A stretch of 64,000 nucleotides of DNA from Chloracidobacterium sp. Lineage in GTDB: Bacteria; Acidobacteriota; Blastocatellia; Pyrinomonadales; Pyrinomonadaceae. The notes under the pieces were generated by a model. That model made no database searches. It saw nothing but the letters and a program-made list of their open reading frames with translations, and was not told the DNA's origin. A program made the position numbers and the translations under genes. This document shows positions 41,729 to 49,972 of this stretch, piece after piece; position 1 is the first letter of the stretch, and every line of letters begins with the position of its first letter. The DNA lies in NCBI GenBank assembly GCA_031370285.1, contig JANMQG010000057.1, forward strand, positions 33,502 to 97,501, given 5' to 3'.

Positions 41729-42229
41729 TTATTGCAGGAACTGTTCGTAATCAGTTTTCCGAATATCCAAACCACCAGCGATACTTGCGGTAAGCGGCGC
41801 TTCATGATGTAACTCCGCGGACCGGCGCTGTACCCAGTGGAGCACGCTTAGCGCCACCGCAGTTAATATTGCCAGGATCACAATTGCCAGCACGACAGTC
41901 AAAAGCGGCGAGCGAGTGGCGGGTGCATCGGTATAAACCTTCGAGTGATAAGGGGTGCTTGCTACTTCTTCGCCTGTGCCTCCAGCTTCACGCATATAGC
42001 GCGTATAGCCTTCAATCGCCTCTTTCTCGTCGTAACCAACGTAACGAGCATAAGCTTTGACGAAGCTGCGATTGAAAATCCCGCCCGGCAAGCGTTTGTA
42101 ATCATTCGTTTCTATCGCTTCAAGGTAGTGCATCGAGATTCGCGTCTGATCGGAAATCTCGCGTAGCGGAATGCCGCGTCCCTCGCGTGCGAGTCGCAAC
42201 TGTTCACCGATAGTCGCTTCCATCACCAT
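41729..42229 (-). CDS. RodZ-like helix-turn-helix membrane protein
   Basis: HTH IGEQLRLAREGRGIPLREISDQTRISMHYLEAIE..FNRSFVKAYARYVG, one TM (LLTVVLAIVILAILTAVAL). Start uncertain (42229 or 42223 versus ORF start 42301). Confidence 0.7.
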   Translation of the reverse strand: MVMEATIGEQLRLAREGRGIPLREISDQTRISMHYLEAIETNDYKRLPGGIFNRSFVKAYARYVGYDEKEAIEGYTRYMREAGGTGEEVASTPYHSKVYTDAPATRSPLLTVVLAIVILAILTAVALSVLHWVQRRSAELHHEAPLTASIAGGLDIRKTDYEQFLQ

Positions 42230-42511
42230 TCGCTTCAGCCTTTTGCCTATCGCTTCGGTGGAGGTGGGCCTCGTTGGATACCAGTTGAAAGTAGACTGCA
42301 ACTTAGATTGCTGGAATCGGAGGCGGTCTAGCCCGCGCTGCTAAATCCCCTAATTGTTTGGCTGAATATATCTTGCGTTGCTAAACGCTGTCAACTTTTG
42401 CGTCAGAAAGAGAAGCGTCTCTTGATTCTTCGTGCGCGCGGTGATAGGTTTGCGCCTGCGATCGAACGTCGACTTTAATTTCTACAACAATAAAAAGTGA
42501 GGTTACATGAG

Positions 42512-42910
42512 ATGCCTTTAGAAGCACTCGGAATGGTGGAGACCAAGGGCTTTGTCGGAGCTGTCGAAGCCGCGGACGCGATGGTCAAAGCTGCGAATGT
42601 TCAGCTCATTGGAAAAGAGTATATCGGAGCCGGTTACGTGACGATCTTTGTTCGCGGAGACGTGGGCGCGGTTAAGGCAGCCACCGACGCCGGAGCAGCG
42701 GCAGCGCGAAGAGTCGGCGAACTGATTAGTGTTCACGTGATTCCTCGCCCACATGCTGAAGTCGAGCGCGTCTTACCGGCCGACGGGCGCACCGGTTTGA
42801 GCCCGGATGAGCGCTCGCTTGGAGGTGGCACTCGAGGCCAGTTGGGAGAAGGCGATCAGGGGCGCTCGCTTCACGGCGCGCGAGAAGGAAGCAAGGAAAA
42901 AGCCAGGTAA
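42512..42910 (+). CDS. BMC-H (hexamer) shell protein with about 45-aa Gly/Arg/Glu-rich C-terminal tail
   Basis: [58 protein letters not shown], the canonical PduA/EutM/CcmK-type BMC domain. Confidence 0.9.
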
Positions 42911-43005: not shown

Positions 43006-44886
43006 ATGTCCGCAGACAAGGACCTGATCTCGGTACAGCAGGCGCGGGACCTGGTAGAAGCCGCTTATAAGGCGCAGGCTGAGATCGTCAAATTTGACCA
43101 GGCAAAGATCGATCGAATTTGCGAGGCCATGTCCCGGGCCGCTCTGCGCGAAGCCGCCCGCCTCGGCGCATTGGCCGTGGAGGAAACCGGCTTCGGTATC
43201 CCGGACGATAAGCGAGAGAAGAACCGTTTTGCCGCTGAAGATGTTTGGAACTACTTTCGCGGGTTGCGCACTGTCGGCGTCGTTTCAGAATCAAGAGATG
43301 TTGTAGAGATAGCGAGCCCGCGCGGCGTTGTTGCCGGCATCATCCCTTCCACCAATCCGACCTCCACGGCGATCTTTAAAGTTTTGATCGCGGTCAAATC
43401 CAGAAACGCTATTGTGCTTTCCCCTCATCCGTCCGCGGCTCGTTGTATCAACGAAACGGTGCAGGTGATGCGCGAAGCGGCCATCAAAGAAGGTCTGCCG
43501 GCGGACGCGGTTGCCTGCATGACGACCGCCACCATCGAAGGCACTGAAGCTTTGATGAAACACAAGCAGACGGCTGTCATCCTGGCTACCGGCGGCATTG
43601 GGCTGGTGCGCGCAGCTTATTCATCGGGCAAACCCGCGTTTGGAGTCGGCCCCGGTAACGTTCCTGTTTTTATCGAGAGAACTGCGGATGTTACCAAAGC
43701 GGTTCAGGATATTTTGACTGGAACGACTTTCGACAACGGAACCATTTGCGCTTCTGAGCAAGCTGTAGTTTGTGATGCTCCTATTGAAAAAGCTGTAAGG
43801 GAACAATTCAAAGCGCAGGGCGGGCACTTTCTTTCCGCTGCGGAAGCTGACCAACTGGGCAAAGTGGTGGCAACTCCACAACGTTCTCTAAACCCCGGGA
43901 TCGTAGGAAAGTCGGTCGAGGTGATTGCCAAGCTGGCCGGGTTGAACGTCCCTCCAGGCACGCGCTGCCTGATGGTGGATGTTGGCGGTGTCGGACGTGA
44001 GTTTCCGCTGTCTATGGAAAAGCTCTCACCCATCCTCGCGTTCTATGTGACGGACGGCTTATCGCGTGGCGCGGAGCGTTGCTATGAAATCCTGCGCTAC
44101 GGCGGCATGGGCCACACCGCGGGAGTTCACACTCGTTCGCGCGAGGCCGCGGTCCGCTTCGGCGGGGAGATGCCGGCGTCGCGCATTACGGTGAATACAC
44201 CTACAACTCACGGGGCGATTGGTTTCTCGACGGCGCTTCCGCCATCGATGACCCTGGGCTGCGGTTCGTGGGGCGGCAATGTAACTTCGGATAATGTGTC
44301 GCCACTCCACTTGCTGGATATCAAGCGAGTAGCTTTTGAAACAAGAGCAGTGAAAAGTAAACGGCCGGCAGTTGCAGCTTCTACGGTAGCCACTCCTGCG
44401 CCAGCGGCCGCGTATGCCGGAACGACTGCGAGCTCGGCGCCAGCTCAACCTCAGGCGGTAGTTGGTTCTGGTGCGGGCAAGATCAACCGCGAAGACATCG
44501 CCGCGATAGTCGACCGGTTTCTGGCGGGGCGCCAACCGGAGCAGCCGTCGAGTGAAGCAAGGGAGACGCGACAGCAACCGTCGCGCGCAGCAAGCGAGCC
44601 CGAAGCCGAAGCTGGCAGCATGTATGCCGGACCAGGCCAGAACCGAACTGATAATGTCCGCCAGCCGGCAAATGCCGGCCGATCATCTTCGGCATCTTCG
44701 GCTGGCTCCAGTTCAAGCAGCGCTTTGACCGCGAACAATGGCGCGAAGACGGTTGACTTCGTTAGTGAAGACGACGTCAAACGCGCGATTCAAAAAGGTG
44801 AGAAGATCTATATCAACGCGAAAACCATTATCACTCCGGCAGCCCGTGACATCGGCGAACCGGGCGAAGTGTTTGCTAAAGGCTAA
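43006..44886 (+). CDS. CoA-acylating aldehyde dehydrogenase (PduP/EutE-like) with 180-aa C-terminal extension
   Basis: Core about aa 1-446 with catalytic Cys in [11 protein letters not shown] (codon 43747-43749). Then an Ala/Ser/Pro-rich linker, amphipathic [16 protein letters not shown], a second Ser-rich linker, and the terminal module [33 protein letters not shown]. Confidence 0.9.
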
Positions 44887-44978
44887 AGTTTCAAGTTCCA
44901 AGTTCCAGGTTTCAAGTTAGGCGCTCAGGGCCAGACTGGAAACCTGGAACTTGGAACTTGAAACTTGGAACTTGAAAC
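44886..44978. repeat. tandem-heptamer hairpin (GTTYCAA/GTTCCAR arms)
   Basis: aagtttcaagttccaagttccaggtttcaagtt / loop / ctggaaacctggaacttggaacttgaaacttggaacttgaaac. The right arm ends 1 nt before ATG 44980. Confidence 0.85.
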
Positions 44979-44979
44979 C

Positions 44980-45309
44980 ATGTTCTTAGGCAAAGTCGTC
45001 GGCACAGTTTGGTCTACCAAGAAGACTCCCGATCTTGAAGGCATCCGCTTTCTGGTCGTGCACCCCTATGATCTGGAAAAAGATCCAACCCGGAACATCG
45101 TCATTGTTGCCGATCGGCTGGGCGCCGGAAGTGGCGAGATGGTGATTTGTGCCTTTGGCAAAGCAGCGCGCACGGCAATGGGCAATCAGGACATGGCAAT
45201 CGAAGCCGCAGTCGTTGGGATAGTCGATCGGGTGGACATCACCGACACGGCTTCAGAAGAGATGCGCGAGGCGGCGCGTCAACTCGCGCGCGATAATGGA
45301 AGACAGTGA
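44980..45309 (+). CDS. BMC-P (pentamer/vertex) shell protein, EutN/CcmL family
   Basis: MFLGKVVGTVWSTKK...LVV...VADRLGAGSGEMVICAFGKAAR...EAAVVGIVDRVD. Confidence 0.9.
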   Translation: MFLGKVVGTVWSTKKTPDLEGIRFLVVHPYDLEKDPTRNIVIVADRLGAGSGEMVICAFGKAARTAMGNQDMAIEAAVVGIVDRVDITDTASEEMREAARQLARDNGRQ

Positions 45310-45413
45310 GGAGTGAAAAGTGAAGAGTGAAAAGGCGTTGAATTGTGCTGAGGTTTGATTCACGCGCTAGCCAACATTCCAGAACTCATCACTTTTCACT
45401 TTTTACCTTTCAC
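45306..45413. repeat. tandem-heptamer hairpin (GTGAARA arms)
   Basis: gtgaggagtgaaaagtgaagagtgaaaag / 50-nt loop / ctcatcacttttcactttttacctttcac. Confidence 0.85.
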
Positions 45414-45421
45414 TGGTTTTT

Positions 45422-45901
45422 ATGGCTAACGAAGATTTGATTTACCGGCTCACGAAGGCCGTCTACGGCCGCCTGGGTCCGGCAGCGGACGAGCAAACCG
45501 TCGAGCAACTCGTCACAGAAGTGTTCCGCGAGATCGAGCCCTTTCTGCACGCGAACGGATCGTCATACTCCTCTTTACAATCTCTTCCCGCGAGCGGCAC
45601 CGCTGCTTCGCAATCGCCGGAAGGTTCTGCTGACCGAATGATCATTTCGGTGTTTGGCGTAGACCATCCCGGCATTGTCGCCGGAGTCGCCCAGATACTG
45701 GCCGGTGCCGGCTGCAGCATTGTGGATATCAACCAGACGGTAGTGCAGGGCAAGTTTGCCATGGTCATCATCGCCAACAGCGCGCACGCGCGGGAGAGCG
45801 CAGCCGAATTGAAAGAGCGACTGCGGAGCGAAGGGGAAAAACTTGGCGTCCGTATCTACGCGCAGCGTGAAGATCTCTTTAACGCCATGCACCGGATTTG
45901 A
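45422..45901 (+). CDS. ACT-domain protein of the UPF0237 type with 71-aa N-terminal extension
   Basis: C-terminal 88 aa: MIISVFGVDHPGIVAGVAQILAGAGCSIVDINQTVVQGKFAMVII...GVRIYAQREDLFNAMHRI, as in UPF0237 partners of UPF0210. The N-terminus has helices LIYRLTKAVYGRL and VEQLVTEVFREIEPFL followed by a Ser/Pro/Ala linker. Confidence 0.8.
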   Translation: MANEDLIYRLTKAVYGRLGPAADEQTVEQLVTEVFREIEPFLHANGSSYSSLQSLPASGTAASQSPEGSADRMIISVFGVDHPGIVAGVAQILAGAGCSIVDINQTVVQGKFAMVIIANSAHARESAAELKERLRSEGEKLGVRIYAQREDLFNAMHRI

Positions 45902-46023: not shown

Positions 46024-46560
46024 ATGCCTGAACCAGAAATTGCTCGACGCTGTCCCACCTGCGGCGCATCAATTCGCGAGGTAGCCCTCTTCTGTCCGCA
46101 ATGTGGCAACGCGCAGCCACACCGGCAAGCGCGCGCCGCAGCCGCACTCCCAGAAACGACTTCTAAAAGTACAGCCCCCCTGGAAGACTCAGAGGCCGAG
46201 GCGCCGCAGAAGTCTATGTCCGACACAATCGCGATTGAGAGACCTGAAGATGCGCCCAAAGTTCCGGCTAACGCGCGATCTATGTCTGACACTATCGCGA
46301 TTGAGAGACCTGAAGAAACGCCCAAAATCTCGGCTAGTCCAAACGTACGTGGAGCGGTGGGCGCAAAGCTGCAGCGTGCCACCACGCTCGTGCGTGATGT
46401 CGAAGGCGACGTGATTTATCGAGTGCAGAAAGTGCGTGAGATCTCCAGTGTAGTTTTGGATGAAGCGGGAAACGATCCCGGGCTGCGTTTTTTGCTGGTC
46501 GCCGGAATCCTCTTTGTTCTGTTTCTCGTCATTGTGTTGTTGAATAGATTGATTACGTAG
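46024..46560 (+). CDS. zinc-ribbon protein with C-terminal TM anchor and internal 22-aa tandem repeat
   Basis: CPTCGASIREVALFCPQCG. SMSDTIAIERPE(D/E) twice (DNA repeat 46213-46250 / 46279-46316, period 66). C-terminal LRFLLVAGILFVLFLVIVLL. Confidence 0.65.
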   Translation: MPEPEIARRCPTCGASIREVALFCPQCGNAQPHRQARAAAALPETTSKSTAPLEDSEAEAPQKSMSDTIAIERPEDAPKVPANARSMSDTIAIERPEETPKISASPNVRGAVGAKLQRATTLVRDVEGDVIYRVQKVREISSVVLDEAGNDPGLRFLLVAGILFVLFLVIVLLNRLIT

Positions 46561-46663: not shown

Positions 46664-48025
46664 ATGGAATATTCGCAAGCAGAAATCCTTCAAACCGTCG
46701 CGATGACGGAAATGGAACACCTGGACGTTCGCACCGTAACGCTGGGTCTGAGTCTGCGCGACTGCGCCAGCGAAACAATCACGCGCACCGCCGAACGCGC
46801 GGTGGAAAAAATTCACCGGTTCGCCGATGTTTTGGTTCAGACTGTCGACGCGATAGGCGACGAATTTGGGATACGCATCGCCCACAAGAGAATCGCGATA
46901 ACGCCGGTGTCGATGATTACGGAAAGCGCCTCCGGCGATCCGGTCAACCTGGCACGTGCGATTGACGAGGTCGCAGCCGCAGTCGGCGTGGATTTTATTG
47001 GTGGCTATTCCGCGCTGGTTCACAAGGGAGCCACCGATTCCGAGCGCGAGTTTATGAACTCCATTCCCGAAGCGCTCTCCGTCACCAAGAGGTTGTGTTC
47101 ATCTGTGAACGTTGCGACCACGCGCGCCGGCATAAACATGGACGCGGTGCGGCAGGTGGGAATCATCATCAAGGAAGCCGCCGAGCGCACCAGCAACGAA
47201 GGCGGCATCGCCTGCGCAAAGTTTGTCTGTTTTGCGAATTCAGTTGAAGACAATCCCTTCATGGCCGGAGCTTTTCACGGGCTCGGCGAACCCGAGGCCG
47301 TGATCAATGTCGGCGTGTCCGGCCCCGGCGTTGTTAACTATGCCATCAGGCATGCCGCGCCAGATCTGCCGCTGCAGGAGTTAGCCGAAATCATTAAGAA
47401 GCTTTCGTTCAAACTTTCGCGCGCCGGCGAACTGGTGGGCAGGGAAGCCGCGCGCCGTCTGGGAATTCCTTTCGGCATTATTGATTTGTCACTCGCGCCG
47501 ACACCTGTGCCAGGTGATTCAGTGGCAAACATAATCGAGGCGATGGGTTTTGAAAGAGCGGGAACTCATGGCACCACTGCCGCGCTCGCCTTGCTTACCG
47601 ATGCAGTCAAAAAGGGCGGGGCGATGGCGAGCGGATCTGTCGGCGGTATGAGCGGCGCGTTCATTCCCGTTTCCGAGGACGCGGGCATGATCGAGGCCGT
47701 CCGCCTCGGCGCGCTTTCGCTCGATAAACTCGAAGCCTGGACCAGCGTCTGTTCTGTCGGTATTGATATGGTGGCCGTGCCCGGCTCAACTTCGGCCGAG
47801 ACTATCTCCGCAATCATTGCCGACGAGATGGCTATCGGTGTGATGAATAACAAGACCACGGCCGTCAGGATCATCCCGGCGCCCGGCCGGGTGGTAGGTG
47901 AGATGGTTGAGTTTGGCGGCCTGCTTGGCAGCGCGCCGATAATGGCAGTAAACGCGTTTTCGTCGGCCGGCTTCATCCATCGTGGCGGCCGCATTCCGGC
48001 GCCGATCCATTCGCTGCGGAACTAA
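46664..48025 (+). CDS. UPF0210 / DUF711 family protein
   Basis: 453 aa. N-terminus [27 protein letters not shown] and the length match my memory of the UPF0210 family, which is normally paired with a UPF0237 ACT protein. Confidence 0.8.
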
Positions 48026-48273: not shown

Positions 48274-48744
48274 ATGAGCTGTACGCCCAACACTCTTCGT
48301 CAAATCGCGCGCCGAAAATTCCACCGCTTCATCTTTTGCGCGGCCGGCATTTACAACATCGTCTGGGGTCTCTACTCAGTTTGGGACCCGCAGTGGTTGT
48401 TCCGATACTCTGGTCTGCCGCTACAAAACCATCCACAGATCTTCGCTTGCCTCGGTATGGTGGTGGGATTGTATGGGATTATTTATTTCGAGGTCGCGCG
48501 CGTTCCCGAGCGCGGCTGGTTGCTGGCCGCCGTCGGGCTGACAGGGAAAGTGCTTGGCCCCATCGGCCTCTTCCGCTTGATCTGGAGCAGTACGTGGCCG
48601 CGGGCGACGATGGTGTTGTCGCTCACAAACGATCTGATCTGGTGGGTCCCATTCGCCCTATATCTCTACGATGCCTGGCCGGCGTTTCGACAAGATGTAT
48701 TCCAAACGGTGAGCAACAAAGACTCTGGACAAATTGCAGGCTAA
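48274..48744 (+). CDS. hypothetical 4-TM membrane protein
   Basis: 156 aa with four hydrophobic segments. No SD seen, no motif recognised. Confidence 0.5.
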
Positions 48745-48794
48745 GGCTTAAGTTCTACCTATTCAACGGCAGCATAAGGAGCGGCGAAGAAAAA

Positions 48795-49118
48795 ATGGCA
48801 GAAGCACTCGGCATGGTTGAATGCATGGGACTGGTCGCGATGATCGAAGCGGCTGACGCAATGGTCAAAGCTGCTAACGTACGCCTCGTCGGCTGGGAAA
48901 AGATCGACGCCGGTTTAGTCACGGCGATAGTGAGGGGCGACGTCGCTGCGGTGCGTGCGGCCGTCGATGCCGGAGCTGCCGCCGGCAGCAAAGTCGGCAA
49001 GGTTGTTGCTACCCACGTAATTCCGCAACCGCATGGCGATGTCGATCTGGGGTTGCCGGTCCTGCAAACAGGTGAAACAACCAAGAAGAAGATTAGCGGT
49101 TCAGTTCGCGCGAAATGA
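48795..49118 (+). CDS. BMC-H (hexamer) shell protein, second paralog
   Basis: From ATG 48795 (AAGGAG upstream): [58 protein letters not shown]. Confidence 0.9.
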
Positions 49119-49330: not shown

Positions 49331-49972
49331 ATGAGTTTGACTCTCTATCTTCTTCGTCACGGACAAACCGCACTCAGTCGCGACGACGTCTTCTGTGGGT
49401 CCGGCCTTGATCCCGAGTTGACGCCGGAGGGCTTGCAGATGGCCAGGGCTTTCGCAGCGGCCTACAGCGCGAAACCCTGGCGTGCAATTTATTCCAGCAG
49501 TCTGCGACGAGGTATCGACACCGCTCAGCCGCTCTGCGATGAGCTGAAAATCTCAATTCAGGTACGCGCGGATCTAAATGAGATCGGCTATGGCAAATGG
49601 GAAGGACAAAACAGAGAGAACGTCGCCCGCGAATATCACGACGACTACGTGAGTTGGCTCGCCGATCCGGCCTGGCATGCGCCGACTGGCGGCGAGCTGG
49701 CGATCACGGTAGCCACGCGCAGCTTGCGGGTGATTGATGAAATCAAGCAGCAGTTTGCGGAGGGAAATGTCCTGATCGTTTCTCACAAGGCGACCATAAG
49801 AATAATTCTTTGCAGCCTGCTGGGGATCGATGTGGGCCGCTTTCGTTACCGGCTCGGCTGCCCGGTAGGTTCGGTTAGCGTGATTGAGTTTTCCCTCGAA
49901 GGTCCGCTGTTGCATTCATTGGCTGATCGTTTACACTTGAGTGAATCGTTGCGAGCCTTGCCTGGTACGTGA
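49331..49972 (+). CDS. histidine phosphatase family protein (phosphoglycerate mutase / CobC-like)
   Basis: LYLLRHGQT catalytic RHG motif, and a later SHKATIR. Confidence 0.85.
   Translation: MSLTLYLLRHGQTALSRDDVFCGSGLDPELTPEGLQMARAFAAAYSAKPWRAIYSSSLRRGIDTAQPLCDELKISIQVRADLNEIGYGKWEGQNRENVAREYHDDYVSWLADPAWHAPTGGELAITVATRSLRVIDEIKQQFAEGNVLIVSHKATIRIILCSLLGIDVGRFRYRLGCPVGSVSVIEFSLEGPLLHSLADRLHLSESLRALPGT

What the first reader, a model, noticed from the sequence alone, without database searches (positions are those of the whole stretch)
45422..45634. N-terminal 71-aa extension on the ACT/UPF0237 protein looks like BMC encapsulation peptide(s)
Seen: the ACT core starts at about aa 72 (MIISVFGVDHPGIVAG...). 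Upstream are two short predicted amphipathic helices (LIYRLTKAVYGRL; VEQLVTEVFREIEPFL), then a Ser/Pro/Ala-rich linker (SSYSSLQSLPASGTAASQSPEGS). Established: BMC cargo is commonly targeted by about 18-aa amphipathic helices joined to the enzyme by a low-complexity linker. Stand-alone UPF0237 proteins are about 90 aa as far as I recall. Inference: the extension targets this protein, and possibly its UPF0210 partner by piggy-backing, to the shell lumen.
Basis: partly seen in the sequence, partly recalled or inferred. Interest (0 to 1): 0.7.

Follow-up and report, generated by a model that had tools for sequence, protein, structure and literature searches.

The report
Tandem encapsulation-like helices on ACT protein
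A small ligand-binding (ACT) protein encoded next to bacterial-microcompartment shell genes carries a conserved N-terminal pair of duplicated amphipathic helices on a floppy linker. This looks like a microcompartment targeting tag, but the same tag also sits on relatives encoded far from any shell gene.

Summary
ORF 45422-45901 encodes 159 aa. There are two confidently predicted helices (aa 3-18 and 24-44), a disordered Ser-rich linker (aa 45-71), and a UPF0237-type ACT core (aa 72-159). The ATG start and the helices are conserved under purifying selection in 80 Pyrinomonadaceae genomes. All of these share the gene order BMC-H, AldDh, BMC-P, ACT, Zn-ribbon protein, DUF711, BMC-H. This order matches the published "ACI" satellite locus.

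The extension is not specific to this locus. It is an ancient, internally duplicated two-helix module with an invariant Gly between the helices, and it is shared by a broad ACT subfamily.

- **Next to microcompartment genes:** in Calditrichaeota the extension-bearing ACT gene follows a BMC-P gene and precedes DUF711. In two further clades and in Chloroherpetonaceae it lies beside ACI-like AldDh genes.
- **Away from shell genes:** in Ignavibacteria, Rhodothermales and KSB1 the extended ACT-DUF711 pair has no shell gene within 10 kb.
- **Possible reconciliation:** those phyla are reported to carry fragmented, cargo-less BMC loci. Whether the same genomes hold both was not testable here.
- **Controls:** homologs without the extension (about 90 aa, PDB 1ZPV) are never next to shell genes.

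Best reading (about 0.55): a tandem encapsulation-peptide-like targeting module, with DUF711 possibly carried in by binding to the ACT protein.

The parts
45422..45901 (+). Gene for the 159-aa ACT (UPF0237-like) protein with an N-terminal extension
   Evidence: ORF. Pfam ACT_6 at aa 73-145. 4929 homologs, the best 120 full-length at 82-92% identity.
45428..45475 (+). Helix 1 (aa 3-18, NEDLIYRLTKAVYGRL), first EP-like repeat
   Evidence: AF2 helix 3-18. Mean conservation 0.86 for aa 1-20, with E4, I7, Y8, T11 and V14 invariant. Purifying selection. Moderate hydrophobic moment.
45476..45478 (+). Gly19, invariant turn residue between the two helices
   Evidence: Invariant in the extension-only alignment A3, and at least 90% conserved in A1 and A2.
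45491..45553 (+). Helix 2 (aa 24-44, EQTVEQLVTEVFREIEPFLHA), second EP-like repeat, strongly amphipathic
   Evidence: AF2 helix 24-44. Hydrophobic moment up to 0.66, shuffle p=0.006. Similar to helix 1: p=0.0015 in Pyrinomonadaceae and 0 of 3000 shuffles in the distant family.
45554..45634 (+). Disordered Ser/Gly/Ala/Pro-rich linker (aa 45-71)
   Evidence: pLDDT below 50 at aa 46-64. Low conservation (0.62) with indels. 32% Ser; length 15-30 aa locally and 6-43 aa across the family.
45635..45898 (+). ACT core (aa 72-159), UPF0237 type
   Evidence: Pfam ACT_6. PDB 1ZPV aligns to aa 70-159, E 3.6e-10. pLDDT 96-98.
44965..45309 (+). BMC-P (EutN/CcmL pentamer) gene directly upstream; the protein probably starts at MFLGK (44980)
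   Evidence: Pfam PF03319, E 1.3e-27. 59% identical to Caldithrix abyssi Cabys_2141, which Sutter et al. place in the 'waterBlue2' BMC-P clade and which is also followed by an extended ACT gene and DUF711.
43006..44886 (+). BMC-type aldehyde dehydrogenase. It has a C-terminal EP (aa 491-510, nt 44476-44535), a linker, and a ~46-aa terminal domain (nt 44746-44883).
   Evidence: Pfam Aldedh. The conserved [19 protein letters not shown] helix and terminal domain are present in 72 loci. Matches the ACI satellite description in Sutter 2021 Supplementary Data 2.
42497..42910 (+). BMC-H shell protein with a C-terminal tail
   Evidence: Pfam PF00936, E 4.6e-29. Syntenic in the related loci.
46024..46560 (+). 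Zn-ribbon protein with a C-terminal transmembrane helix, inserted between ACT and DUF711
   Evidence: Pfam zinc-ribbon hits. Present at this position in all Pyrinomonadaceae loci that extend far enough.
46664..48025 (+). DUF711/UPF0210 protein (453 aa) with no extension; proposed piggy-back partner
   Evidence: Pfam PF05167, E 5.9e-177. Aligns end to end with PDB 2HA9 (aa 7-453 against 6-446). 58% identical to the Caldithrix ortholog.
48795..49118 (+). Second BMC-H shell protein
   Evidence: Pfam PF00936, E 7.8e-29. Conserved synteny.
45304..45415 (+). Long intergenic RNA hairpin between the BMC-P and ACT genes, built from AGTGAAA heptads
   Evidence: MFE -45 kcal/mol, z -4.4. The equivalent spacer is strongly structured in 81% of 78 related loci.

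Best explanation
The 44 N-terminal residues form a small hairpin of two tandemly duplicated, acidic, amphipathic helices joined at an invariant glycine. A disordered Ser-rich linker of about 27 aa tethers this hairpin to a UPF0237-type ACT domain.

I propose that the hairpin works like a microcompartment encapsulation peptide. It would dock the ACT protein onto the lumenal side of the shell, or bundle it with the EP helix of the co-encoded aldehyde dehydrogenase, during assembly. The blue-clade BMC-P encoded immediately upstream is the obvious candidate shell partner. DUF711/UPF0210 has no tag of its own and is the near-universal gene neighbour of UPF0237, so it would enter by binding to ACT.

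Shown: the anatomy, translation, purifying selection, internal duplication, the variable linker, recurrent adjacency to BMC-P or AldDh, and absence of the extension from ~90-aa homologs.

Inferred: binding to shell or cargo, encapsulation, and the ACT-DUF711 complex.
For: 1. The extension meets the structural EP definition of PMC4594438: terminal helices at aa 3-18 and 24-44, a disordered and poorly conserved linker, then the functional domain.

2. The helices are constrained as strongly as the ACT core, and the start codon is fixed.

3. In 79 of 80 Pyrinomonadaceae loci the gene lies between shell genes and an AldDh. That AldDh has the EP plus ~50-aa domain described for ACI satellite loci.

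4. The three-gene module BMC-P, extended ACT, DUF711 recurs in Calditrichaeota, including the cultured Caldithrix abyssi (Cabys_2141/2140). The genes are separated by 3-20 nt or overlap by 4 nt. BMC-P is 59% and DUF711 58% identical to the window's proteins.

5. The extended ACT gene also lies next to ACI-like AldDh genes carrying C-terminal EPs in the P0129 clade, the P0145 clade and Chloroherpetonaceae.

6. Homologs without the extension (19 loci, and PDB 1ZPV) are never near shell genes.

7. Named carriers of the extension are Blastocatellia, Calditrichaeota, Ignavibacteria, Chloroherpetonaceae, Rhodothermales and KSB1. Five of these six taxa (all but KSB1) correspond to taxa that Sutter et al. 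name for the ACI, FRAG1 and FRAG3 types; KSB1 is named only for MIC4.

8. An extension-only profile searched against 177,635 PDB sequences gave, as its best hit, residues 1-21 of a flavodoxin (5VEG, E 0.044). Its other in-register N-terminal hit was residues 1-18 of diol dehydratase beta, the PduD-type EP position (E 2.7).

9. The Sutter catalogue already lists an ACT-domain HMM for ACI/MIC3 loci and an ACT protein with an unexplained N-terminal domain in FRAG4.
Against: 1. Of 19 extension-bearing loci outside Pyrinomonadaceae with at least 5 kb on both sides, only 3 contain a shell gene and 1 an AldDh. A sensitive HMM search (hmmsearch --max) also found none in the rest. The Ignavibacteriaceae, Rhodothermales and KSB1 neighbourhoods look like housekeeping genes.

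2. The taxonomic overlap with FRAG-type BMCs is at phylum or class level and is confounded by phylogeny. Co-occurrence within the same genome was not shown, except for Caldithrix abyssi.

3. The extension has no significant similarity to the AldDh EP of the same locus (p=0.23). Its profile hits no other protein in the 175 held loci.

4. Sutter et al. report that EP-HMM searches in FRAG genomes found nothing. They report no detectable EP in MIC3 and do not list the ACT protein among ACI EP carriers.

5. A confidently predicted two-helix hairpin is not the canonical single 18-aa helix. Helix 1 alone is not significantly amphipathic.

6. The PDB hits are marginal, and I could not verify that 5VEG is microcompartment-associated.
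Confidence: 0.55

Rival explanations
1. The hairpin is a family-wide oligomerisation or partner-binding domain of one UPF0237 subfamily (for example binding DUF711 or another enzyme) and has nothing to do with encapsulation. Its neighbourhood with shell genes in some lineages reflects pathway linkage or gene-order drift.
For: Most long extension-bearing loci outside Acidobacteria and Calditrichaeota have no BMC genes within 10 kb. The module is ancient, with an invariant Gly, and AF2 gives pLDDT above 90 for both helices as for a folded mini-domain. There is no significant similarity to the AldDh EP. Published EP HMMs found nothing in FRAG genomes.
Against: ACT-DUF711 pairs without the extension exist widely (14 of 19 extension-less loci; 1ZPV/2HA9), so the hairpin is not needed for the ACT-DUF711 relationship. 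An extended ACT gene also occurs without an adjacent DUF711 but next to an EP-bearing AldDh (L172). A tight, partly overlapping operon with a lone BMC-P is conserved between two phyla. Extension-less homologs are never next to shell genes.
Confidence: 0.3
2. The ACT protein is a ligand sensor that docks on the outside of the shell, or on the BMC-P vertex, through the hairpin. It would regulate the compartment or DUF711 rather than being lumenal cargo.
For: ACT domains are typically small-molecule-binding regulatory modules (Pfam ACT/ACT_6). The most constant shell neighbour is a single BMC-P rather than a full shell set. A membrane-anchored Zn-ribbon protein is inserted in the operon.
Against: There is no evidence for any exterior-binding tag in this family. 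The AldDh of the same locus uses a helix-plus-linker architecture that is generally lumenal.
Confidence: 0.1
3. The extension is a DNA-binding helix-turn-helix or ribbon-helix-helix, making the protein a ligand-responsive transcription factor for the locus.
For: Two short N-terminal helices followed by an ACT-like sensor resemble the layout of some small regulators (general knowledge).
Against: The extension is acidic: net charge -4.1 on average in Pyrinomonadaceae and -2.2 across the family, with only 2 of 31 sequences positive. AF2 predicts no N-terminal beta-strand. There is no Pfam HTH or RHH hit even at E up to 10. A separate HTH_25 protein is encoded divergently upstream.
Confidence: 0.03
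4. The true start is the internal Met73 and the upstream 71 codons are untranslated leader.
For: Met73 is ATG in 66 of 80 loci, and a GGAAGG-like stretch lies upstream.
Against: The codon-position entropy shows protein-level purifying selection on both helices. The EGS codons upstream of Met73 vary synonymously, so the conservation is at the amino-acid level and is not a ribosome-binding site. The position is not Met in the wider family, where the sequence reads RIIITAFG or RVILTSFG. Upstream in-frame stops fix the ATG at 45422. An additional internal start cannot be excluded.
Confidence: 0.02

Closest known systems
Canonical metabolosome encapsulation peptides (N-termini of PduP, PduD, EutC; C-terminus of CcmN; Kinney 2012, Aussignargues 2015, PMC4594438)
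   Same: A terminal amphipathic helix or helices of about 16-20 aa, tethered to the functional domain by a poorly conserved flexible linker and encoded beside shell genes. The hydrophobic spacing i, i+3, i+4, i+7 is as in those peptides. The extension profile's in-register N-terminal PDB hits include a PduD homolog (not significant).
   Different: There are two duplicated helices joined by an invariant Gly instead of one. The module is conserved as a recognisable sequence family across phyla, whereas EPs are described as lacking sequence conservation. It also occurs on homologs encoded away from shell genes. Function is untested.
C-terminal EP of the ACI-type aldehyde dehydrogenase (Sutter et al. 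2021, Supplementary Data 2)
   Same: Same locus and the same helix-plus-linker logic. Visually the N-cap (N-x-E-D/E) and the hydrophobic register are shared.
   Different: Profile-to-profile similarity is not significant (p=0.23). The AldDh EP is a single helix and is followed by a further ~46-aa domain that the window's ACT protein lacks.
FRAG4 (Marinimicrobia) ACT-domain protein with an unexplained N-terminal domain, and the catalogue HMM 'HMM01842act_1_acimic3' (Sutter et al. 2021)
   Same: An ACT domain of about 90 aa at the C-terminus of a protein regarded as typical of microcompartment loci. The catalogue recognises an ACT family in ACI/MIC3 loci.
   Different: The catalogue text does not call the N-terminus an EP. 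It says it has no detectable homology, and reports no EPs in MIC3. I could not obtain those sequences to test whether they carry the same hairpin.
Streptococcus pneumoniae SP0238 (UPF0237, PDB 1ZPV) and SP0239 (UPF0210, PDB 2HA9) gene pair
   Same: The ACT core and DUF711 are clear homologs (E 3.6e-10 and 1.7e-154), and the two genes are neighbours in most lineages.
   Different: SP0238-type proteins are about 90 aa with no N-terminal extension, and the extension-less loci sampled here are not next to shell genes. The function of both families is unknown.
Engineered tandem EP constructs (EP2/EP3) used to drive condensation (PMC12339742)
   Same: Two EP helices in series on one polypeptide. That paper reports that EPs bundle and that covalently linked EPs can self-associate.
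   Different: Those constructs are synthetic. Here the tandem arrangement is natural, ancient and separated by a 5-residue turn rather than a long linker.

Membership tests
BMC encapsulation peptide (Kinney/Aussignargues definition) | [quoted passage not shown] | tested here: met
   AF2 helices at aa 3-18 and 24-44 with pLDDT above 90. Helix 2 hydrophobic moment 0.51-0.66, shuffle p=0.006. Helix 1 about 0.4, in the range of the reference EPs but not significant against shuffles.
BMC encapsulation peptide (Kinney/Aussignargues definition) | Separated from the functional domain by a poorly conserved, flexible linker | tested here: met
   aa 45-71: pLDDT below 50; conservation 0.62 against 0.92 for the core, with indels; relaxed codon constraint; length 6-43 aa across the family.
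BMC encapsulation peptide (Kinney/Aussignargues definition) | Extension present on BMC-associated homologs and absent from homologs not associated with BMCs | tested here: inconclusive
   Absent from 19 extension-less loci and from 1ZPV, none of them near shell genes. But present in 57 of 73 non-Pyrinomonadaceae loci with no shell gene in the held DNA, including 16 of 19 with at least 5 kb on each side. Genome-wide presence of shell genes was shown only for Caldithrix abyssi.
BMC encapsulation peptide (Kinney/Aussignargues definition) | Sufficient to direct a heterologous protein into shells, or binds shell proteins | not testable with these tools
   Needs GFP-fusion and shell co-expression, pull-down, or multimer structure prediction.
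BMC encapsulation peptide (Kinney/Aussignargues definition) | Recognised by published EP HMMs (Sutter 2021 Supplementary Data 5) or similar to an EP of the same organelle | tested here: not met
   No significant similarity to the locus's AldDh EP (p=0.23). Sutter et al. report no EP-HMM hits in FRAG genomes.
UPF0237 / ACT_6 (PF13740) stand-alone ACT proteins | A single ACT fold of about 75-90 aa matching PF13740 above its gathering score | tested here: met
   52.9 bits against a cutoff of 23, at aa 73-145. 1ZPV E 3.6e-10. Beta-alpha-beta-beta-alpha-beta topology in AF2.
UPF0237 / ACT_6 (PF13740) stand-alone ACT proteins | Gene neighbour of a DUF711/UPF0210 gene | tested here: met
   DUF711 lies 2 genes downstream in the window. 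It is adjacent in 57 of 73 extension-bearing and 14 of 19 extension-less other loci.
ACI-type BMC satellite locus (Sutter et al. 2021) | AldDh with an EP close to the C-terminus followed by a ~50-aa domain of unknown function | tested here: met
   The window AldDh has the helix at aa 491-510 and a terminal domain at aa 581-626, both conserved in 72 loci. Description.
ACI-type BMC satellite locus (Sutter et al. 2021) | Found in Acidobacteria (subdivisions 4 and 6), with an extra BMC-P (blue clade) and BMC-H beside the AldDh | tested here: met
   All 80 closest genomic loci are Pyrinomonadaceae/Blastocatellia MAGs. BMC-P and two BMC-H genes are present. Clade colour is inferred only through 59% identity to Cabys_2141, which is 'waterBlue2'.
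ACI-type BMC satellite locus (Sutter et al. 2021) | Main locus elsewhere, with a class II aldolase, hydroxyacid dehydrogenase and a BMC-P triplet | not testable with these tools
   No further BMC-H or BMC-P genes occur in the 64-kb window. The rest of the genome is not available.
HTH/RHH-ACT transcription regulators | A basic DNA-binding N-terminal domain with a recognisable HTH or RHH signature | tested here: not met
   Net charge -2 to -6. No Pfam DNA-binding family even at E up to 10. No N-terminal strand.

The most novel reading that the evidence does not exclude
The extended ACT protein together with DUF711/UPF0210 may be the conserved and so far unrecognised cargo of the ACI and 'fragmented' (FRAG1/FRAG3/FRAG4-like) microcompartments. 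Sutter et al. could assign no enzymes or encapsulation peptides to those organelles. On this reading the duplicated two-helix hairpin is a distinct class of targeting domain, possibly read by blue-clade BMC-P pentamers. DUF711 belongs to the same ten-stranded barrel superfamily as the glycyl-radical enzymes (PMC4390871) and may even be the missing aldehyde-generating signature enzyme.
Probability: 0.25. Interest if true: 0.8.

Novelty: new variant of a known kind. Interest (0 to 1): 0.55.

Why it matters
Many catalogued microcompartment types have no known substrate. These include ACI, with 125 loci in soil Acidobacteria, and the FRAG types in Ignavibacteria, Calditrichaeota and relatives. For the FRAG types, some loci also lack any identifiable enzymes, and no targeting peptides were found in those genomes.

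If the hairpin is a targeting module, it does two things. It labels a defined protein pair (UPF0237 and UPF0210, both of unknown function despite solved structures) as cargo. It also gives a sequence profile for finding cargo in genomes where shell genes are scattered. That would turn the question of what these organelles do into a testable one, for example in the cultured Caldithrix abyssi.

A natural tandem-EP hairpin would also interest groups who engineer EP-driven condensation and encapsulation (PMC12339742). If instead the hairpin has nothing to do with microcompartments, the finding reduces to an ordinary N-terminal domain on a subfamily of ACT proteins.

Tried and rejected
- **Internal start at Met73 or a conserved internal ribosome-binding site.** Rejected. 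Synonymous variation in the EGS codons, no Met at this position in the wider family, and coding-type constraint on the helices all argue against it.
- **Homology between the ACT extension and the AldDh EP.** The eyeballed alignment (N-x-E-D, same hydrophobic register) is the best ungapped one but is not significant (p=0.23).
- **Searching all ORFs of the 175 held loci and the window with the extension profile for other tagged cargo.** Only noise was found (E above 5).
- **Pfam on the extension alone at E up to 10.** No consistent family.
- **Using the published EP HMMs.** The held copy of ep_hmms.hmm is cut to 26 models and contains no ACT-derived model. I did not transcribe models by hand.
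- **Verifying that PDB 5VEG (best profile hit) is the microcompartment-associated flavodoxin of Plegaria et al. 2017.** That paper is not held and no held paper names 5VEG. A review lists the L. reuteri protein as 149 aa, against 178 aa for the 5VEG chain. This remains unresolved.
- **Genome-level co-occurrence in Ignavibacteria, via locus-tag prefixes of two Stygiobacter genomes in Sutter's trees.** Not found, but the tree files are truncated and collapsed.
- **Context of several 50%-cluster representatives (P0146, P0163, P0145, P0152, P0192).** The contigs were too short to be informative. Two showed a histidine kinase or response regulator upstream.
- **PDB and Pfam identity of the AldDh terminal ~46-aa domain.** Only sub-threshold hints to PF15953 (PDU_like) and PF02817 (E3_binding).
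- **DNA-binding reading.** Rejected on charge and fold.
Full report
**1. The observation**

- Pfam places an ACT_6 domain at aa 73-145.
- The 91-aa stand-alone ACT protein of PDB 1ZPV aligns only to aa 70-159. The first ~71 residues are therefore an addition to a UPF0237-type core.
- AlphaFold2 on a 42-sequence alignment gives helices at aa 3-18 and 24-44 (pLDDT mostly above 90), a disordered stretch at aa 46-64 (pLDDT below 50) and a confident ACT fold at aa 72-158.
- Helix 2 is strongly amphipathic (hydrophobic moment up to 0.66; 0.6% of shuffles reach it). Helix 1 is only moderately amphipathic.

**2. The extension is translated**

A scan of one genome per species returned 405 relatives. 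The best 80 are all Pyrinomonadaceae/Blastocatellia MAGs and match aa 1-159 at 72-91% identity.
- The ATG is at the same position in 76 of 79 loci, and about 25 loci have an in-frame stop 0-3 codons upstream.
- Codon-position entropies in the two helices (0.43/0.18/1.34 and 0.41/0.13/1.39) equal those of the ACT core (0.26/0.14/1.33). The linker is relaxed.
- The conserved E67-G68-S69 stretch varies synonymously, so it is not an internal ribosome-binding site. Position 73 is not Met in the wider family.
- The internal-start alternative is therefore rejected as the sole start.

**3. The locus**

The gene order is: HTH protein (-), BMC-H, AldDh (626 aa), BMC-P, ACT, Zn-ribbon/TM protein, DUF711, membrane protein, BMC-H, histidine phosphatase.
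- There are no further shell genes in the 64-kb window.
- The same order holds in all 80 related loci.
- The AldDh carries a conserved C-terminal helix ([19 protein letters not shown]), a variable linker and a conserved ~46-aa terminal domain.
- This is the architecture Sutter et al. (PMC8217296, Supplementary Data 2) describe for the satellite locus of the Acidobacteria-specific 'ACI' microcompartment. They describe that locus as sometimes accompanied by a blue-clade BMC-P and a BMC-H.
- Their HMM table lists an ACT-domain model for ACI/MIC3 loci. Their text does not describe an EP on it.

**4. The extension is not specific to this locus**

An exhaustive search of 1.84 billion cluster representatives found 1830 relatives.
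- Many proteins of 140-165 aa align from residue 1-5 at 30-56% identity.
- Others are 89-95-aa stand-alone ACT proteins or tandem-ACT proteins.
- Aligned, the extension-bearing proteins share the pattern M..E..I..L.......LG..A....VE..V..V, with Gly19 nearly invariant in A1 and A2 and invariant in A3.
- Helix 1 and helix 2 are significantly similar to each other. In Pyrinomonadaceae the score is 19.6 against a null of 3.4 +/- 4.0 (p=0.0015). In the distant family it is 12.3 against -0.3 +/- 2.3 (0 of 3000 shuffles).

The extension is therefore an ancient tandem duplication of one amphipathic helix, most likely folded as a hairpin. It is acidic (net charge -2 to -4), has no Pfam match, and shows no significant similarity to the AldDh EP of the same locus (p=0.23).

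**5. Genomic context of the extension-bearing family**

A metagenome scan seeded with distant members, together with exact-protein look-ups, gave 95 further loci.

*Adjacent to microcompartment genes:*
- The P0190 clade, which is Calditrichaeota by source names. It includes the cultured Caldithrix abyssi, where a 97-aa BMC-P (Cabys_2141) is followed by the extended ACT gene (Cabys_2140) and DUF711. The genes are 3-20 nt apart, or overlap by 4 nt in L087.
- Sutter's BMC-P tree lists Cabys_2141 as 'waterBlue2, fragmented (sat)', and lists other Caldithrix shell genes elsewhere in that genome.
- The window's BMC-P is 59% and its DUF711 58% identical to the Caldithrix proteins. The three-gene module is therefore orthologous across two phyla.
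- The P0129 and P0145 clades place the extended ACT gene beside AldDh genes that have the same EP plus terminal-domain tail. A Chloroherpetonaceae contig places it three genes from an AldDh ending in an EP-like helix.

*Not adjacent to microcompartment genes:*
- Ignavibacteria (named through), Rhodothermales and KSB1 have the extended ACT gene followed by DUF711 in ordinary-looking neighbourhoods, with no shell gene or AldDh within 10 kb. A sensitive HMM search (hmmsearch --max) also found none.

*Tally:*

| Set of loci | With a shell gene | With AldDh | With DUF711 |
|---|---|---|---|
| Pyrinomonadaceae (80) | 79 | 77 | 69 |
| Other, extension present (73) | 16 | 3 | 57 |
| Other, extension present, at least 5 kb both sides (19) | 3 | 1 | 18 |
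| Other, extension absent (19) | 0 | 0 | 14 |

**6. How to read this**

The published EP definition has two parts. One is structural. The other is comparative: the extension should be present only on microcompartment-associated homologs.
- The structural criteria are met.
- The comparative criterion is ambiguous. Homologs without the extension are never near shell genes, but most carriers outside Acidobacteria and Calditrichaeota are not near them either.
- The named carrier taxa are Blastocatellia, Calditrichaeota, Ignavibacteria, Chlorobi-related Chloroherpetonaceae, Rhodothermales and KSB1. Five of these six (all but KSB1) correspond to taxa that Sutter et al. list for ACI, FRAG1 and FRAG3. 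KSB1 is listed only for MIC4.
- The FRAG types have components scattered over up to six places, and EP-HMM searches in those genomes found nothing. Some FRAG loci, including the shell-only FRAG1, have no identifiable enzymes.
- FRAG4's only 'typical' non-shell protein is an ACT protein with an unexplained N-terminal domain.
- This overlap is suggestive but is at phylum level and confounded by phylogeny. I could show co-occurrence within the same genome only for Caldithrix abyssi. An attempt for two Stygiobacter genomes was uninformative.

**7. Independent hint**

The extension-only profile was searched against all PDB sequences.
- Its best hit was residues 1-21 of a flavodoxin chain (5VEG, MALREDRIAEIVERVLARLGS, E 0.044).
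- Its other in-register N-terminal match was residues 1-18 of diol dehydratase beta, the PduD-type EP position (E 2.7).
- Both are marginal, and I could not verify the origin of 5VEG.

**8. Mechanism proposed**

The best-supported reading (about 0.55) is that the hairpin is a tandem EP-like targeting or assembly module. It would be tethered by a flexible linker and would bring the ACT protein into, or onto, the compartment. DUF711 aligns end to end with 2HA9 and has no tag, so it would follow by binding ACT.

Rivals:
- The main rival (about 0.3) is a subfamily-wide partner-binding or oligomerisation hairpin unrelated to encapsulation.
- An exterior sensor or adaptor role has about 0.1.
- DNA binding and a mis-called start are unlikely.

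**9. Novelty**

No held paper combines 'microcompartment', 'ACT domain' and 'encapsulation', and none follows up the FRAG types. UPF0237 and UPF0210 have no functional literature in the library. The catalogue-level association of an ACT family with ACI/MIC3 loci is already known.

New here:
- the EP-like, internally duplicated hairpin;
- its conservation across phyla;
- the orthologous module of BMC-P, extended ACT and DUF711;
- the possibility that this pair is the missing cargo of fragmented microcompartments.

I rate it a new variant of a known kind, of moderate interest, with a more interesting but unproven upside.

Noticed in passing
window 45304-45415 (intergenic, between the BMC-P and ACT genes): A long hairpin built from four AGTGAAA(A/G) heptads and their complements. 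MFE -45 kcal/mol, z -4.4. The equivalent spacer is strongly structured in 81% of 78 related Pyrinomonadaceae loci (median z -5.7). It could be a terminator or attenuator, or an mRNA processing or stability element that sets shell-to-cargo stoichiometry.
   Followed up: partly
window 44746-44883 (AldDh aa 581-626); also the N-termini of P0177, P0180, P0184, P0198, P0200, P0229, P0268 and P0270: The ~46-aa terminal domain of the AldDh (consensus ..DFVSEDDV..A...G..I.I....IITPAARD.G) recurs at the N-terminus of other ACT proteins. There it sometimes precedes the two-helix module. AldDh and ACT therefore share two accessory modules. There is no PDB hit, only sub-threshold Pfam hints to PDU_like (PF15953) and E3_binding (PF02817).
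   Followed up: partly
window 46024-46560: A Zn-ribbon protein with two copies of SMSDTIAIERPE(D/E)xPK and a C-terminal transmembrane helix is inserted between ACT and DUF711 in all Pyrinomonadaceae loci. It is absent from the Calditrichaeota module, where ACT and DUF711 abut. A membrane-anchored protein inside a microcompartment operon is unexpected.
   Followed up: no
window 46664-48025: [quoted passage not shown] Glycyl-radical enzymes are signature enzymes of GRM microcompartments, and ACI has no known aldehyde-generating enzyme.
   Followed up: no
window 44608-44631 (AldDh aa 535-542): A short motif, EAGSMY.G, is conserved inside the otherwise variable linker between the AldDh EP and its terminal domain. 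It may be a second short interaction motif.
   Followed up: no
window 42497-42910 and 48274-49118: The first BMC-H has a ~50-aa charged C-terminal tail. The second BMC-H gene is preceded by a 156-aa multi-pass membrane protein gene that is present in only some related loci.
   Followed up: no
L081-L083 and the JGI contig of P0192: In two lineages of unknown taxonomy the extended ACT gene follows a histidine kinase or response regulator and precedes an enoyl-CoA hydratase rather than DUF711. The contigs are too short to judge any link to microcompartments.
   Followed up: partly
L084 4713-6107: In the P0129 clade a 464-aa protein with no Pfam match sits between the EP-bearing AldDh and the extended ACT gene. 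It is an unannotated candidate microcompartment component.
   Followed up: no
window 49331-49972 and 41729-42301: A histidine phosphatase (phosphoglycerate-mutase family) gene downstream and a divergent HTH_25 (RodZ-like) gene upstream are syntenic with the shell genes in most related loci. They may belong to the locus.
   Followed up: no
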